Positions 13,964-60,436 of a DNA stretch of 64,000 nt are shown here, piece by piece. The notes below the pieces were generated by a model. It ran no database searches. It was not told where the DNA came from and saw only the letters and a program-made list of their open reading frames with translations. Made by a program: the position numbers and the translations under genes. Within the stretch, counting starts at the first letter, position 1. Every line of letters starts with the position of its first letter. This stretch comes from a virus: IMG/VR virus record IMGVR_UViG_3300025141_016157, positions 64,001-128,000 of that record; one strand, given 5' to 3'.

Positions 13964-14767
13964 ATGAGCGATATGATAGAAAAGTTGGACCTTGTTAAAG
14001 AAAAATTTGGCTGGGAAGTTCCTATTGAAGCGGTTCCGTTGCCTTCAAGAGGTAAGGTTTATCACAAAGGATCACCACTTTATAATAGAGAGGTTATTGA
14101 AATAAAAGCAATGACTGCACAGGAAGAGGATATTTTGATGTCACCTGCACTTCTAAAGCAGGGAAAGATCATGTCACAACTTCTTTCATCTTGTATAGTT
14201 GATAAAACAATAGATCCAGACGAAATGTTGTCTGGAGATAGAAATGCTGTAATGGTGGCAATAAGAATTACTGGATATGGAGCAGATTATTCAGTAAGCA
14301 CACAGTGCCCAAATTGCACTTTTACAAGTGTTCAAACATATGATCTAGGCCAGCTTGCACTTAAAAGGCTGGATTTATCACCTGTAAATGATAGCGGCAG
14401 CATTTTTGAATTTAAGCTTCCGGTTACAGGAAAGACAGTCCATTTTAAATTTTTGAGCGGAAAAGAAGAGTCAGATAGATCTTTAATGCTAGAAAGAATG
14501 AAAAAAATGACAAATGGAATGGGTGTAGAGAGAGAAGTAACTTCCAAACTAGAAACTCAAATTATATCAATAGACGGAATTGATGATAGAAACGCAATTA
14601 GACAATTTGTATCAAAGATGCCTGCAAGGGACTCTAAGTCTCTAAGAAGACATATTCAAATTAGTGAGCCTGGCGTAGATATGAATGTTGATATGAAATG
14701 TCCTGAGTGCATGAAGCACGGGAGGGTTGCGCTACCACTTGGCGCAAACTTTTTTTGGCCCGAGTGA
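13964..14767 (+). CDS. Baseplate-hub/tail assembly chaperone (gp26-like, two CxxC)
   Basis: LPSRG..Y, MTA.EEDIL, GDRNA....IR..GYG, CPNC/CPEC, ends NFFWP; lies between tube and tape measure. Confidence 0.75.
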   Translation: MSDMIEKLDLVKEKFGWEVPIEAVPLPSRGKVYHKGSPLYNREVIEIKAMTAQEEDILMSPALLKQGKIMSQLLSSCIVDKTIDPDEMLSGDRNAVMVAIRITGYGADYSVSTQCPNCTFTSVQTYDLGQLALKRLDLSPVNDSGSIFEFKLPVTGKTVHFKFLSGKEESDRSLMLERMKKMTNGMGVEREVTSKLETQIISIDGIDDRNAIRQFVSKMPARDSKSLRRHIQISEPGVDMNVDMKCPECMKHGRVALPLGANFFWPE

Positions 14768-26761: not shown

Positions 26762-28480
26762 ATGCCTACTAAGAAAGATAATTTTTTAAAAAGATATTTC
26801 ACACAAAGGTCTGATCTATCAGGACCAATTTCAAGATCTGGCGATGGCTTCGGTGCTGCTGGTGCTATGGGTAGTGGAGATGGGTATAAAGAAAAAATAG
26901 GAAGGGAAAAGATACCGTGGTATCTAAGCGACTTTAGAGGTCAACCATCTATGGCAGCGGACTCAGGATTCTCTTCAATAGTTATGTCAAGAGTAAATAA
27001 GGGAAGAGATGAAATTCACGATCCTAAGAGAATGTTTCCAGATCAAGATGTGAAAGATTCAGATGAGGAAGATAATTACTTATCAAGGGCTCAGCATAAA
27101 ATGAAAGAATCATCACAAAAATATTTTAATGAAAATCATATAGTAAAAAATTCCCAATATTCCCTATCAGAGTTGTCATCCCTTATGGGTGAAGATATTG
27201 ACTGGGAAAGGTTTATACCTGATCCCGTTGAAGACTTGGGATCAAGTATTTCAACAGGCATAAGTGATAACTGGAGATCATTAGTTCCCGACTCACTAGA
27301 AGATGAGGCCGAAGATGCTTACGAGTATGTATCAGATCTTTTATCACAGGCAGCCACCCAGGGAGAAGAGGCGTATGACTTACTTTCAGATAAGATAGAT
27401 ACTCTTACACAAGATTCTGAAACGTTTAGAGACGTTAAAGATATAGCAATGGAAGTCGGCAGAGACTTTATAGCACTAACTGCTGCTGGGATACCAGTAA
27501 TCGGAACACCTCTTGCCGCCGCTTATGTTTTATACAATCTATCAGAGCTAGACGAAGGGCAAGAGCAGGCAAGAAGGTCTATAGATCTACTCTTGACTAA
27601 TGGATCGTATGAAAATCTTGAAAATATGCAAAGAGTATCTGGCGATCTATTTGATGATTACATAGATCTTCTTCAGGCGTCGACATATCTTATTCCGTTT
27701 GTTGGAGTTGGAAGGGGAATTGTTGGGACAGCGGGAAAGCTTTTAAATAGAACAAAAGCTACAACAGCAACTGCTTTTTTAGGCCTAACTGGTTCAAGTG
27801 TTCTAAAGTCTGCTATAAAATCAGAAATACTGCTTAGTAATGTCTTTAAGATTGCAGCCAGGATGGCAAACTCAGACGTTGCTGACTCCCTAGGTTTAGA
27901 CAAAACTTACTTTTTTGATTCAATTGTTAAAATACCATCTACGCTAATAGTCATGGCAGATATTATAGAAGAGGCGATTAAGCAGTATGAATCATGGGAA
28001 CAGTCAGGATCACATTCACAATTTAGATTTAATCCCTCACCTCTTTCACTACAAAGAAGTGAAATTCAAAGTTCTGAAGAGAGGTTAGCAAGTGATGACT
28101 ATTTGACAGGTATCGAAGAGTGGATAAGGTCTGTTTCTAGAGACGTTACAGATTCAGTCCTGGGATCAGGACCAGATATAACAATTGAGGCAAAAAAAAT
28201 GAAAGATAATGAGAAGATATTAAGAGCATTTATTAGAGAGTCAATCTATCATACTACAAGAACTGAGCTAGAAGCAAAACCAGCCGGATGGGAGTACAGA
28301 GTACCACCCACATCAGATGAAGATGATACATCTGCAATGGGATCAGGAAAAGATCTTGTTAATTTTAAAACAGACATGGGATATGCAAGCTATCAGTCAA
28401 GACCAGAGAATATAAAAGAACAAGCGCTAAGACGAATTATTAGAAGAAAAATTAGAATTTCTGAGTCTAAAAAAAAGTAG
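26762..28480 (+). CDS. Hypothetical late protein with hydrophobic IP[VF][IV]G segments and internal tag-like helices
   Basis: 572 aa; ATATTTA upstream; ends at an A_AAA_AAG-TAG slippery site. Confidence 0.8.
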   Translation: MPTKKDNFLKRYFTQRSDLSGPISRSGDGFGAAGAMGSGDGYKEKIGREKIPWYLSDFRGQPSMAADSGFSSIVMSRVNKGRDEIHDPKRMFPDQDVKDSDEEDNYLSRAQHKMKESSQKYFNENHIVKNSQYSLSELSSLMGEDIDWERFIPDPVEDLGSSISTGISDNWRSLVPDSLEDEAEDAYEYVSDLLSQAATQGEEAYDLLSDKIDTLTQDSETFRDVKDIAMEVGRDFIALTAAGIPVIGTPLAAAYVLYNLSELDEGQEQARRSIDLLLTNGSYENLENMQRVSGDLFDDYIDLLQASTYLIPFVGVGRGIVGTAGKLLNRTKATTATAFLGLTGSSVLKSAIKSEILLSNVFKIAARMANSDVADSLGLDKTYFFDSIVKIPSTLIVMADIIEEAIKQYESWEQSGSHSQFRFNPSPLSLQRSEIQSSEERLASDDYLTGIEEWIRSVSRDVTDSVLGSGPDITIEAKKMKDNEKILRAFIRESIYHTTRTELEAKPAGWEYRVPPTSDEDDTSAMGSGKDLVNFKTDMGYASYQSRPENIKEQALRRIIRRKIRISESKKK

Positions 28481-28698
28481 ATAGTGATAATGAGCCTCTA
28501 GATATTGATGAAGATTGCTCAGCAGAACACATCGACGAATTTAGCTCAATAGGCGGCGGATCAATTTCCGGATACACACTTCCCCTTGGAATGAAAGGCA
28601 AGGGAAGCGCAATGGATAGTGTCTTTCCCTGGAAGAAAGTAAAAAATAAGTCACAAAGTAAGAAAAAAAGATCAAAAAAGACTTCTAAAAAATCTTGA
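28477..28698 (+). CDS. Start-less -1 frame extension of the 26762 gene
   Basis: 73 sense codons VDSDNEPLDIDE..IDEFSSIGGGSISGYTLPLG..KKTSKKS, bounded upstream by TAA at 28468. Confidence 0.65.
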   Translation, partial: VDSDNEPLDIDEDCSAEHIDEFSSIGGGSISGYTLPLGMKGKGSAMDSVFPWKKVKNKSQSKKKRSKKTSKKS

Positions 28699-28723
28699 AA
28701 ATATTTTCTATTTGCTGTAATAT
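28695..28723 (+). promoter_or_regulatory. sigma70-like promoter for SSB
   Basis: TTGAAA-N17-TAATAT. Confidence 0.6.
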
Positions 28724-28795: not shown

Positions 28796-29581
28796 ATGGC
28801 AATTGATTTTGAAGCAATTAGAAAAAAGCTTGATCGGCTTAGTGGAGCAACACGAAATAGATCGGTTATGTGGAAACCAACTGAAGGTGAAGAGCACGTC
28901 GTTCGGCTGCTTTCTTTTCCCGATAATGATGGACAACCATTTAGGGAGATGTGGTTCTACTACGGGATTGGAAACAATAGAGGACTATTGGCACCGAACC
29001 AGTTTGGAAAACCTGATCCCATTCAGGAGTTAATTACTAATCTTCGAGAGGATGGGTCAAAGGAGTCTTATGAGCTAGCAAAGAAGCTATATCCAAAGAT
29101 GAGAACATATGCGCCTGTCATTGTTCGCGGAGAAGAGGACAAAGGTGTTCAAATTTGGGGATTTGGAAAGACTGTTTACCAGGCACTTCTAGGTCTCATG
29201 CTTGATGAAGACTATGGTGATATTACAGATCCAAAGACTGGAAGAGATATAAAGGTGTCATGTGTTAAGCAGCCAGGAAGAAAGTGGGCAATGACTGAAG
29301 TTCGACCAAGAGGAAAGCAGTCAAATCTTGCGACTAGCTCCGAGAAAGCTTCAGAGTGGACTACAACTATTCCGAATCTTGATGACATTTATACATGCAA
29401 GACTTACGATGAGCTATCAAAGATTGTCAATGATTGGATCTCTGACGAAGAAGATGATGGATTCGGAAGTGATGGTCTAGATAATTCATCTAATACAACA
29501 AGTACAAGTAGCACGACAGAAGCGTCTAGCAAGTCATACAATAATTTAGACGATGCTTTTGCTGATTTGATGGATGAATAA
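28796..29581 (+). CDS. Single-stranded DNA-binding protein (gp32-like)
   Basis: WKP..G...VR.L, DPI.E, W.FGK.VY, DITDP..GRD; acidic C-terminal tail LDDAFADLMDE. Confidence 0.85.
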   Translation: MAIDFEAIRKKLDRLSGATRNRSVMWKPTEGEEHVVRLLSFPDNDGQPFREMWFYYGIGNNRGLLAPNQFGKPDPIQELITNLREDGSKESYELAKKLYPKMRTYAPVIVRGEEDKGVQIWGFGKTVYQALLGLMLDEDYGDITDPKTGRDIKVSCVKQPGRKWAMTEVRPRGKQSNLATSSEKASEWTTTIPNLDDIYTCKTYDELSKIVNDWISDEEDDGFGSDGLDNSSNTTSTSSTTEASSKSYNNLDDAFADLMDE

Positions 29582-30858: not shown

Positions 30859-31806
30859 ATGGACACATGTATAATTGTTGACGGATTAAACTTATTTACT
30901 AGACACTTTGTTGCAAATCCATCTACAAATCAGAACGGAGAGAGTGTAGGTGGTATTACTGGTACCGTCACTGCTATATCAAGACTTTCGGAAAGATTTA
31001 GCCCAGACAGAATTGTAGTCGTATGGGAATCTGGTGGGTCCTCGAGAAAGCGTGCAATTTTTCCAAACTATAAGTCAGGTAGAAGACCGCAAAGGCTTAA
31101 TAGATACTACGGTGATGACATACCCGACACAGTTGAAAATAGAGACAACCAGTTAGAAATTCTAATATCAATTTTAAGAAATATGCCCATAGTTCAGATA
31201 TACATTCCAGACTGCGAAGCAGATGATGTCATCGGGTATCTTTCAAAGTATACACTAAGAGAAATGAGAAAAGTAATTGTTTCATCAGATAAGGATTTTT
31301 ATCAGCTTTTAGACAAGAATACATTAATTTACTCACCTACATGGAAAAAGTTTGTTTCTTTTAAACAAGTTAGAGAAAAATTTGAAATATCTGCACAGAA
31401 TTTCTGTCTTGGAAAATCAATATGCGGCGACGTGTCAGATAATATTGACGGAATCAAAGGCGCAGGATTTAAAACTGTTGCAAAAAGGTTTCCAAGATTT
31501 AGGGAGGAAAATTTTTTTACAATTTCTGAACTTATGGCTGAGTGTAGCAGGAAGATAGAAAGTGGCTCTAAGGTTAAGATATACAAGTCGATAATTGAAA
31601 ATGAAGATGTCATAAGGCGAAACTGGAAATTAATTAATCTTGACACTAACAATTTATCACACAGCCAAATTGCTAAAATAGTAAATTCAATTGATACTTT
31701 TAGCCCTACACGAAATAAAATGAATATATTGAAAATTTTTAAAAATCACGCAATTCAAAATATTGACGTAGATAGATTTTTTTTATCAATGAAATTACTC
31801 AAATAA
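30859..31806 (+). CDS. 5'-3' exonuclease/flap endonuclease (T4 RNase H-like)
   Basis: IVDG.N, YK..R, EADD.I, SSDKDF.QL, GD.SDNI.G.KG.G.KT. Confidence 0.92.
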   Translation: MDTCIIVDGLNLFTRHFVANPSTNQNGESVGGITGTVTAISRLSERFSPDRIVVVWESGGSSRKRAIFPNYKSGRRPQRLNRYYGDDIPDTVENRDNQLEILISILRNMPIVQIYIPDCEADDVIGYLSKYTLREMRKVIVSSDKDFYQLLDKNTLIYSPTWKKFVSFKQVREKFEISAQNFCLGKSICGDVSDNIDGIKGAGFKTVAKRFPRFREENFFTISELMAECSRKIESGSKVKIYKSIIENEDVIRRNWKLINLDTNNLSHSQIAKIVNSIDTFSPTRNKMNILKIFKNHAIQNIDVDRFFLSMKLLK

Positions 31807-59521: not shown

Positions 59522-60436
59522 ATGATTGAACCTACTAGTGTAAATTGCGTAATTTATCATGCTGATTGTACCGATGGTTTTGGTGCTGCTTATGCCGCAT
59601 GGAAATGCTTGGGCAATAGAGCTGAATATCATCCATGTAAGCACGGCATGGATACACCAGACATAACGGGAAAAAGCGTTGTTATTTTAGATTTTTCCTT
59701 TGACAACTCAACAACAAAAAAAATGATTTCTGATGCTGAGTCATTGCTTGTAATTGACCATCATAAATCTGCAATGGTTGAGTTGCATGATATTACTAAT
59801 ACTCGTTTTGATATGACTAAGAGCGGAGCAATGCTAGCTTGGGAATTTTTTCATCCCGGGAAAGAACCTCCAAAGTTCATCCAGTATATTCAAGATAGAG
59901 ATCTTTGGAAGTGGGAACTCCCATACTCAAGAGAGTTTGCAGCAGCGTTTGACATGGTACCATTTGAGTTTGAAGAATTTGAGAAGTTTGAAGATGATTC
60001 TGTATTTGATGATGCTAGAAAGAGAGGGTCCTTTATCCTAGCTTATTCTAAGACAGTTGTTAAGAAAGTGTGTGAAAAAGCATCACCTCGAAAAATGATG
60101 GGAAAGGATGTAATGGTGGTAAATGCTTCACACTGGATGTCAGAGATTGGAGCTAGACTAGCTCCTGACTGTGATCTTGCTATGATATGGTACTGGGATC
60201 ATGATGCAAAGCATACAAAAGTTAGCCTAAGAGCGTTTCATGATACCGTAGACGTTTCAGAGATAGCTAAGAAATTTGGCGGAGGCGGGCATAGAAAAGC
60301 AGCGGGATTTCAACTTCCAAAAAATAAGCATGTAGAAGATTTATTTGATAAGCCAAAGCCTGCAAAGAAGAAGAGGGTGACAAGGCCAAAAACTAAAGCA
60401 AAGCAAGATCAGCAAAAAAAAGATGATGAAAAATAA
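59522..60436 (+). CDS. DHH/DHHA1 phosphoesterase
   Basis: YH.DC.DG, LDF, IDHH, DRDLW, SLR, GGGGH..AAGF; basic tail. Confidence 0.9.
   Translation: MIEPTSVNCVIYHADCTDGFGAAYAAWKCLGNRAEYHPCKHGMDTPDITGKSVVILDFSFDNSTTKKMISDAESLLVIDHHKSAMVELHDITNTRFDMTKSGAMLAWEFFHPGKEPPKFIQYIQDRDLWKWELPYSREFAAAFDMVPFEFEEFEKFEDDSVFDDARKRGSFILAYSKTVVKKVCEKASPRKMMGKDVMVVNASHWMSEIGARLAPDCDLAMIWYWDHDAKHTKVSLRAFHDTVDVSEIAKKFGGGGHRKAAGFQLPKNKHVEDLFDKPKPAKKKRVTRPKTKAKQDQQKKDDEK

What the first reader, a model, noticed from the sequence alone, without database searches (positions are those of the whole stretch)
28466..28698. Unannotated -1 frameshift candidate: A_AAA_AAG directly before the stop
Seen: the 572-aa ORF ends TCT AAA AAA AAG TAG. 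The -1 frame is closed by TAA at 28468 and then open for 73 codons, with no ATG until 28591. It reads as a plausible protein (acidic stretch, IDEFSSIGGGSISGYTLPLG, Lys-rich tail) and fills the gap up to the next promoter. Known: A_AAA_AAG is the dnaX/IS-type bacterial slippery heptamer. Inference: two isoforms are made, the longer with a basic, possibly DNA-binding tail. This lies outside the usual tail-chaperone context. No strong downstream hairpin was seen.
Basis: partly seen in the sequence, partly recalled or inferred. Interest (0 to 1): 0.72.

Follow-up and report, generated by a model that had tools for sequence, protein, structure and literature searches.

The report
Poly-A slippage adds conserved protein tail
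A run of eight A's at the end of an unknown gene in a large uncultured marine phage is a real, evolutionarily conserved slippage site: some copies of the protein gain a 73-residue tail encoded in another reading frame, and dozens of related phages do the same with A9-A11 runs.

Summary
ORF 26762-28480 ends TCT AAA AAA AAG TAG, and the -1 frame is open from 28471 to 28698.

The recoding is real and conserved. In 37 non-identical related loci from marine metagenomes, the same tail lies in frame -1 (21 loci), +1 (3 loci) or 0 (13 loci). The tail has an acidic stretch, an E-F/Q-S...G-[YW]-x-x-P-[LM]-G core and a basic end. Every out-of-frame locus has an A8-A11 run exactly at the junction; the window's A8 is the shortest.

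- **Selection:** tail dN/dS is 0.04-0.19.
- **No independent start:** 22 of 24 out-of-frame tails have no start codon before the core motif.
- **Stable run length:** independent assemblies of near-identical phages agree in 20 of 20 pairs, and a second contig carries the identical A8.
- **No RNA stimulator:** no conserved RNA structure flanks the run.

The family pattern (run length 9 or more, both shift directions, variable base after the run) points to RNA-polymerase slippage. In this phage, A_AAA_AAG followed directly by a stop could equally act on the ribosome.

The protein has no known family. It always sits between an HD-domain gene and the gp32-like SSB gene. The logic resembles dnaX tau/gamma.

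The scan had noted this same stretch once before from an overlapping window (e1-5660213). This is a new member of a known kind of recoding.

The parts
26762..28480 (+). Main ORF (572 aa, P0001), the short isoform made by standard decoding. It has a disordered N-terminal region with conserved short motifs, a helical and partly hydrophobic core, and a beta-hairpin plus basic helix '...ALRRIIRRKI..ESKKK' at the end.
   Evidence: No Pfam, PHROG, PDB or Atlas match. 84 cluster representatives found by exhaustive profile search.
28469..28476 (+). A8 homopolymer, the slippage site. With G28477 it forms A_AAA_AAG (28471-28477) in the 0 frame. The only stretch open in both frames is 28471-28477.
   Evidence: The homologous position carries A9-A11 in all 23 other non-identical out-of-frame loci.
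28478..28480 (+). 0-frame stop codon TAG, directly after the run. It overlaps the tail-frame codons GTA GAT (Val-Asp). In relatives the stop is TAG in 19 of 24 loci, embedded in tail-frame [LIV]-D codons.
28471..28698 (+). -1-frame tail ORF (P0002). 73 residues are added after the Lys run, giving a predicted 645-aa long isoform. The acidic part runs from about 28477 to 28536, the core 'EFSSIGGGSISGYTLPLG' is at 28537-28590, and the Lys-rich end is at 28630-28695. Stop TGA is at 28696-28698.
   Evidence: alignment of tails; dN/dS 0.09-0.19 against L002 and L003; tail HMM 74 bits; no start codon before residue 41.
28695..28723 (+). Sigma-70-like promoter (TTGAAA, 17 nt, TAATAT) for the downstream SSB gene. 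It overlaps the tail's stop codon. No + strand terminator lies between 28480 and 28698.
28796..29581 (+). gp32-like single-stranded-DNA-binding protein gene, the invariant downstream neighbour (context only).
   Evidence: PF08804, phrog_1192. One search shows conserved synteny, with the SSB 65-89% identical across the family.

Best explanation
The A run at 28469-28476 is a programmed slippage site. One gene makes two proteins through it. Standard decoding gives the 572-aa body, ending ...ESKKK. A one-base shift of register on the A run gives a 645-aa isoform that continues ...SKKK-VDSDNE... into a conserved, disordered tail (acidic stretch, G-Y-x-x-P-L-G motif, Lys-rich end).

Shown: the tail is conserved as protein and is physically part of the same polypeptide in in-frame relatives. 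It cannot initiate on its own. It is reached only through an A8-A11 run in every out-of-frame relative.

Inferred: the shift is made mainly by RNA polymerase stuttering on the run. Extra A's in a fraction of mRNAs (+1 A gives the -1 frame, +2 A or -1 A gives the +1 frame) are then translated normally.

In this phage the run is only A8, but it is followed by G and then a stop. Ribosomal -1 slippage of tRNA-Lys on A_AAA_AAG before a slowly decoded stop probably contributes as well. Sequence alone cannot separate the two.

The function of the tail is inferred only as a partner- or nucleic-acid-binding linear-motif module of a replication-module protein.

The confidence given (0.5) is for the full statement, with transcription as the main route. 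That recoding on the A run makes two isoforms at all I hold at about 0.85-0.9.
For: - **Same tail, three frames.** Across 37 non-identical loci the tail lies in -1 (21), +1 (3) or 0 (13).
- **Run always at the junction.** All 24 out-of-frame loci have an A run there: A8 once, A9 ten times, A10 eight times, A11 five times. In 160.6 kb of related loci, 28 A/T runs of 9 or more lie at the junction and 5 elsewhere.
- **Purifying selection.** Tail-frame dN/dS is 0.04-0.19 where dS is measurable. A tail HMM found the untrained subfamily's tails at 31-71 bits, with one hit per locus among 5,048 frame segments apart from one weak extra hit in L037.
- **No independent initiation.** 22 of 24 out-of-frame tails have no ATG, GTG or TTG before the core motif.
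- **One polypeptide.** In-frame relatives read straight through '...ESKK-x-ILKSD-acidic-...GYTAPM...'.
- **Repeated frame switching.** The frame state changed at least 5 times on the protein tree (3 changes forced by supported branches), and the window's own supported 11-member clade holds -1, +1 and in-frame members.
- **Signature of transcriptional slippage.** Runs are 9 or longer in 23 of 23 relatives. Both directions are used. The base after the run is G (16), T (4) or C (4). The 0-frame stop lies 1-12 nt after the run. No conserved RNA structure was found. These match the criteria in PMC3711429 and PMC5009743.
- **Reverse configuration.** In-frame members with A9-A11 have stops 2-12 codons away in both other frames, as in Thermus dnaX.
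- **One transcript.** A sigma-70-type promoter is present and no terminator lies between the body and the tail.
Against: - A8 is at the lower limit for RNA-polymerase slippage. This genome tolerates about a dozen A8 runs and one sense-strand A9 run inside other ORFs, so slippage at A8 cannot be frequent here.
- The window's site is exactly the strongest bacterial ribosomal -1 heptamer, placed directly before a stop.
- No RNA or protein data exist. The host and its tRNA-Lys set are unknown.
- No RNA polymerase gene was found, but the record is only about 58% complete, so it is not known which polymerase transcribes the gene.
Confidence: 0.5

Rival explanations
1. Purely ribosomal -1 programmed frameshifting. 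tRNA-Lys slips back one base on A_AAA_AAG (28471-28477) while the TAG stop waits in the A site. Relatives would use A_AAA_AAA, and the three +1 lineages would use ribosome sliding or a +1/-2 shift on the poly-A run.
For: The window has the canonical dnaX heptamer in the right phase, immediately before a stop. Any A run of 8 or more contains a -1 heptamer in every phase. 21 of 24 out-of-frame loci need a -1 shift. This genome tolerates A8 runs inside other genes, which fits a context-dependent (stop-adjacent) ribosomal event better than a length-driven polymerase event. Ribosome sliding on poly-A is documented (PMC4363877).
Against: No 3' stem-loop or pseudoknot was found in the window (z = +0.45) or conserved in the family (0 pairs), and no conserved upstream element was found. 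Selection keeps runs of 9-11 rather than 7 in 23 of 23 relatives. The base after the run is not held at G. The distance to the stop varies from 1 to 12 nt. Three lineages need the opposite direction.
Confidence: 0.35
2. DNA-level explanation. The A run is an assembly or sequencing error, or a phase-variable tract (replication slippage), or the tail is a decaying remnant after a frameshift mutation. No RNA- or ribosome-level recoding is involved.
For: Homopolymers are error-prone and mutable. In-frame and out-of-frame states interchange in evolution.
Against: 24 non-identical loci from many projects and assemblers are out of frame. 20 of 20 pairs of near-identical loci from different records have the same run length. 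A second contig has the identical A8. Tails remain under strong purifying selection in out-of-frame lineages separated by more than one substitution per site, which a dead remnant would not show.
Confidence: 0.07
3. The tail is a separate small gene translated on its own (re-initiation or coupling after the TAG stop), not a fusion.
For: One gene caller called a 75-aa ORF from a TTG in L007.
Against: 22 of 24 tails have no ATG, GTG or TTG upstream of the conserved core, and the window's first start is Met41, after the core motif. In 13 loci and about 25 cluster representatives the tail is fused in frame. In the window, L002 and L003 the tail frame opens inside the A run itself.
Confidence: 0.03

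Closest known systems
dnaX tau/gamma recoding. E. coli uses -1 ribosomal frameshifting at A_AAA_AAG, Thermus thermophilus uses transcriptional slippage on A9, and 'two-ORF' dnaX genes of Chlorobi-type bacteria carry A7-A10 with the gamma stop right after the site (PMC5009743, PMC3711429).
   Same: Two isoforms share the N-terminal body and differ by a C-terminal module. The switch is a Lys-coding A run. Homologues alternate between a long form made by slippage and a long form in frame with nearby stops in the other frames. The gene lies in a replication context.
   Different: The protein is unrelated: it has no AAA+ or clamp-loader domain and no Pfam hit. No stimulatory stem-loop or internal Shine-Dalgarno element was found. 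Both -1 and +1 configurations occur within one family. The function of the tail is unknown.
Shigella flexneri spa13/mxiE and Citrobacter rodentium tssM transcriptional frameshifting on A/T runs (PMC5009743, PMC4256274).
   Same: RNA-polymerase slippage on a homopolymer gives a fraction of product with a C-terminal extension or two length variants. No RNA structure is required.
   Different: Those are bacterial secretion-system genes with single or few lineages. Here the gene is a phage gene, and the site is conserved over dozens of lineages with 26-55% protein identity.
Phage tail assembly chaperone G/GT-type -1 frameshift (Xu, Hendrix and Duda 2004, cited in PMC10885494).
   Same: A conserved phage recoding event that gives a C-terminally extended minor isoform.
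   Different: The genomic context differs: a replication module (PolA-HD-gene-SSB) rather than tube-to-tape-measure. The slip site is a long A run rather than a defined heptamer. The direction is not fixed.

Membership tests
dnaX/IS-type programmed -1 ribosomal frameshift site | X_XXY_YYZ slippery heptamer in the 0 frame | tested here: met
   A_AAA_AAG at 28471-28477.
dnaX/IS-type programmed -1 ribosomal frameshift site | 3' stimulatory stem-loop or pseudoknot a few nt downstream | tested here: not met
   In the window the MFE is -14 kcal/mol with z = +0.45. RNAalifold on 21 homologous junctions predicts 0 pairs.
dnaX/IS-type programmed -1 ribosomal frameshift site | Upstream internal Shine-Dalgarno-like stimulator | tested here: inconclusive
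   Only GAG/GAA (a Glu codon) precedes the run and no AGGAGG-like element is conserved. The host's anti-SD sequence is unknown.
dnaX/IS-type programmed -1 ribosomal frameshift site | Heptamer and shift direction conserved among homologues | tested here: not met
   Runs are A8-A11. The next base is G (16), T (4) or C (4). Three lineages need a +1 shift.
Programmed transcriptional realignment (RNA-polymerase slippage) site | Homopolymeric A or T run of about 8-9 or more at the frame junction | tested here: met
   The window has A8, which is borderline. All 23 other non-identical out-of-frame loci have A9-A11. The threshold follows PMC3711429 and PMC5009743.
Programmed transcriptional realignment (RNA-polymerase slippage) site | Run conserved while phase and direction vary; nearby stops in the non-productive frames | tested here: met
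   -1, +1 and 0 configurations occur within one clade. The 0-frame stop lies 1-12 nt after the run. In-frame A9-A11 members have stops 2-12 codons away in both other frames.
Programmed transcriptional realignment (RNA-polymerase slippage) site | mRNA population heterogeneous in run length | not testable with these tools
   No transcript data were available.
Phase-variable contingency locus (replication slippage) | Run length polymorphic among near-identical genomes | tested here: not met
   20 of 20 near-identical locus pairs are concordant. L062 is identical to the window. Read-level heterogeneity was not testable.
Phage tail assembly chaperone (G/GT) frameshift | Gene pair located between the tail tube and tape measure genes | tested here: not met
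   The neighbours are PolA, an HD-domain protein, a gp32-like SSB, RecA/UvsX, FEN and DnaB.

The most novel reading that the evidence does not exclude
The gene encodes a disordered hub or scaffold protein of the phage replisome, placed between the polymerase/HD genes and the SSB gene. Its C-terminal tail (acidic stretch, G-[YW]-x-x-P-[LM]-G motif, basic end) is a partner-docking module. The poly-A run is an evolvable rheostat that sets the tailed-to-tailless stoichiometry, a phage analogue of dnaX tau/gamma. Lineages tune the ratio by changing run length and register, or even by inverting which isoform is the default.
Probability: 0.15. Interest if true: 0.8.

Novelty: new member of a known kind. 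Interest (0 to 1): 0.6.

Why it matters
Conserved recoding in phages is well documented almost only for tail chaperones and a few capsid genes. This case is strongly supported by comparison and lies in a replication module, in a widespread and entirely uncultured marine phage group that has no member in GenBank phage records.

Gene callers miss the tail in every out-of-frame locus and leave a 'gap' of about 200-300 nt before the SSB gene. About two thirds of the family is therefore mis-annotated as truncated.

Natural -1, +1 and in-frame variants coexist around one homopolymer. That gives a ready-made series for asking how run length and register set isoform ratios, and whether RNA polymerase or the ribosome does the slipping.

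Tried and rejected
**Function searches that gave nothing**
- Pfam and PHROGs on the body, the tail and diverse family members.
- A family profile against PDB sequences.
- ESM Atlas by features and by structure.
- tblastn of four family members and the tail against 50,697 GenBank phage records.
- AlphaFold2 on a natural in-frame homologue with a 21-sequence alignment gave mean pLDDT 48.5 with a disordered N-terminus and tail. I ran no fold search because the model is too poor.

**RNA structure**
- Downstream in the window: z = +0.45.
- Upstream in the window: a weak stem, z = -1.76, not conserved in the family.
- Family-wide RNAalifold predicted 0 pairs on both sides of the run.

**Other checks**
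- Independent initiation of the tail is rejected.
- Assembly error and phase variation are largely rejected.
- Two other homopolymers near ORF ends in this window, A8 at 60414-60421 and T8 at 31777-31784, have alternative frames that close at once, so they are not recoding sites.
- The first single-protein scan of viral contigs and the scan with the 19-sequence alignment A2 found nothing or could not run. Profile A1 and the smaller alignment A3 worked.
- No tRNA genes in the window.
- No recognisable RNA polymerase in the record, which is inconclusive because the record is about 58% complete and the PF00940 control did not ring.
- I did not run complex prediction, because I make no claim about a specific binding partner.

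Full report
**1. Observation**

The sequence is as described.
- ORF 26762-28480 (572 aa, P0001) ends TCT AAA AAA AAG TAG.
- The A8 run is at 28469-28476.
- The -1 frame has TAA at 28468-28470. It is then open to TGA at 28696-28698.
- The -1 frame reads KK-VDSDNEPLDIDEDCSAEHIDEFSSIGGGSISGYTLPLG-MKGKG...-Lys-rich (P0002). Its first ATG is at 28591.
- The only stretch open in both frames is 28471-28477, which is the heptamer A_AAA_AAG.
- A8 runs are not rare here: the window has 5 against 6.6 expected, and the 160-kb genome has about a dozen inside ORFs. The run alone is therefore not the signal.

**2. Context**

The window belongs to a 160,346-bp fragment of an uncultured marine myovirus. CheckV estimates it at about 58% complete.
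- It has a gp23-like capsid protein, two giant sheath paralogues, DnaE and RNR.
- The gene sits in a replication module: a 1080-aa ORF, a PolA fragment, an HD protein, this gene, a gp32-like SSB, RecA/UvsX, FEN and DnaB.
- A sigma-70-like promoter for the SSB gene overlaps the tail's stop codon. No terminator separates the body from the tail.

**3. Relatives**

A word-indexed search found 12 homologues at 41-55% identity.
- Most end at the same '...ESKKK' within 0-2 residues.
- The two most distant carry an in-frame tail, '...DDVDEQSVVANIAGVSTPLGTG...', that resembles the window's -1 frame.
- I fetched their DNA and translated all three frames. The tail is present in every locus, but in different frames behind different A runs.

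| Frame of tail | Loci | A run at junction |
|---|---|---|
| -1 | window; L001, L006, L007; L002, L003 | A8; A9; A11 |
| +1 | L004, L005 | A10 |
| in frame | L008, L009 | no run |

- An exhaustive profile search found 84 cluster representatives. About 45 stop at or just after a KKK. About 25 continue in frame into the same tail module.
- Profile-guided scans of IMG/VR and JGI contigs added 52 loci.

**4. Systematic junction analysis**

I built HMMs of the body's C-terminal 100 residues and of the tail. I searched stop-to-stop segments of all forward frames of every locus.

After removing identical loci, 37 loci had both parts:
- The tail is in -1 in 21 loci, in +1 in 3 (L004, L005, L048) and in frame in 13.
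- All 24 out-of-frame loci have an A run at the junction: A8 once (the window), A9 ten times, A10 eight times, A11 five times.
- The base after the run is G (16), T (4) or C (4).
- The 0-frame stop lies 1-12 nt after the run. It is TAG in 19 of 24 loci, embedded in tail-frame [LIV]-Asp codons.
- In 160.6 kb of these loci, 28 A/T runs of 9 or more lie at the junction and 5 elsewhere.
- The tail HMM hit one place per locus among 5,048 segments, apart from one weak extra hit in L037. It recovered the tails of the subfamily it was not trained on at 31-71 bits.

**5. Is the tail expressed?**

- Tail-frame dN/dS is 0.04-0.19 for the pairs with measurable dS.
- 22 of 24 out-of-frame tails have no ATG, GTG or TTG upstream of the conserved core, so they cannot be separate genes.
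- In-frame long forms, and a short-form family of about 265 aa that lacks the central domain, read straight through '...ISESKK-x-ILKSD-acidic-...-GYTAPM...'. The tail therefore belongs to this polypeptide.
- On a tree of the protein body, the frame state changes at least 5 times, 3 of them forced by supported branches. The window's supported 11-member clade contains 7 members in -1, 2 in +1 and 2 in frame (quick IQ-TREE with SH-aLRT support only; L048 and L027 were left out as too short).
- Out-of-frame lineages separated by more than one substitution per site keep the tail intact. This is only explicable if the tail is translated.

**6. Not an artefact**

- 20 of 20 pairs of near-identical loci from different records agree on the run length.
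- A second contig (123 kb, ERZ27249081) has the identical A8-G-TAG junction and tail.
- Four contigs encode the exact 572-aa product.

**7. Mechanism**

Evidence for RNA-polymerase slippage:
- Selection maintains a long homopolymer (9 or more in 23 of 23 relatives), not a heptamer.
- Both -1 and +1 configurations occur.
- The 3' base and the stop distance vary.
- No conserved RNA structure exists on either side of the run.
- In-frame members that keep A9-A11 have stops 2-12 codons away in both other frames.

These are the criteria used to assign programmed transcriptional realignment (PMC3711429). They mirror Thermus dnaX and the 'two-ORF' dnaX genes with A7-A10 (PMC5009743). Insertion of one A gives the -1 frame. 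Insertion of two A's, or loss of one, gives the +1 frame.

Evidence for the ribosome in this phage:
- The window's run is the shortest of all (A8).
- A8 runs are tolerated inside other genes of this genome.
- The window's site is the strongest bacterial ribosomal -1 heptamer, placed directly before a stop.

Either route yields the same 645-aa protein, ...SKKK-VDSD....

**8. What the protein is**

The function is unknown.
- There is no Pfam, PHROG, PDB or Atlas match.
- There is no relative in GenBank phages.
- AlphaFold2 on a natural in-frame homologue gave mean pLDDT 48.5. It shows a disordered residue 16-176 region, a helical core with one strongly hydrophobic segment (window residues about 236-258), a small hairpin plus basic helix before the Lys run, and a disordered tail.
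- Synteny PolA-HD-gene-SSB holds in every locus. The SSB is 65-89% identical and this gene only 26-55%.
- The conserved tail elements are an acidic run, E-[FQA]-S, G-[YWF]-x-x-P-[LM]-G, in most lineages a '...FGGG...' element, and a Lys/Arg-rich end.
- I infer a linear-motif docking or nucleic-acid-binding module of a replication-associated protein. This inference is not tested.

**9. Comparison and novelty**

Recoding on poly-A is a known kind: dnaX, IS elements, Shigella spa13/mxiE and Citrobacter tssM. What is new is the gene family, the phage replication-module context, and the breadth and plasticity of the conservation. I classify it as a new member of a known kind. The same stretch was noted once before by this scan from an overlapping window (e1-5660213).

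Noticed in passing
window 14750-14756 (end of ORF 13964-14767): A T7 run lies just before the stop of the ORF upstream of the 809-aa ORF. The +1 frame stays open after it to the end of the stretch translated (about 50 codons, FFGPSDGMREEFLEE...).
   Followed up: partly
L014, L015, L025-L028 (e.g. L014:1498-2301): A short-form family of about 265 aa lies at the same position, directly upstream of the gp32-like gene. It has the N-terminal domain, the 'FIRE' motif and an in-frame tail but lacks the central helical domain. L026 lies on a 382-kb contig, so some carriers are jumbo phages. L015 and L027 keep an in-frame A9 at the homologous SKK site.
   Followed up: partly
window 28695-28723: The sigma-70-like promoter of the SSB gene overlaps the last codons and the stop of the tail (...KKS*). 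Several close relatives (L001-L005) end the tail with the same '...KKS*' followed by similar codons, so tail end and promoter may share the same bases there too; the promoter itself was scanned only in the window.
   Followed up: partly
L037:3073-3177: A second, weak tail-HMM hit (15 bits) lies in another frame and overlaps the end of the main tail hit. It may be a further frameshift or a sequencing error inside that tail.
   Followed up: no
window 28192-28199: A second A8 run lies inside the same gene (EAKKMKDN), 281 nt before the ORF's end. Slippage there would only truncate the protein.
   Followed up: no
whole record G000 (160,346 bp): CheckV estimates the record at 58% complete. 140 of 148 crude ORFs are on one strand. 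No recognisable single- or multi-subunit RNA polymerase was found. The phage combines DnaE, a stand-alone PolA fragment and two sheath paralogues of about 1050 aa.
   Followed up: partly
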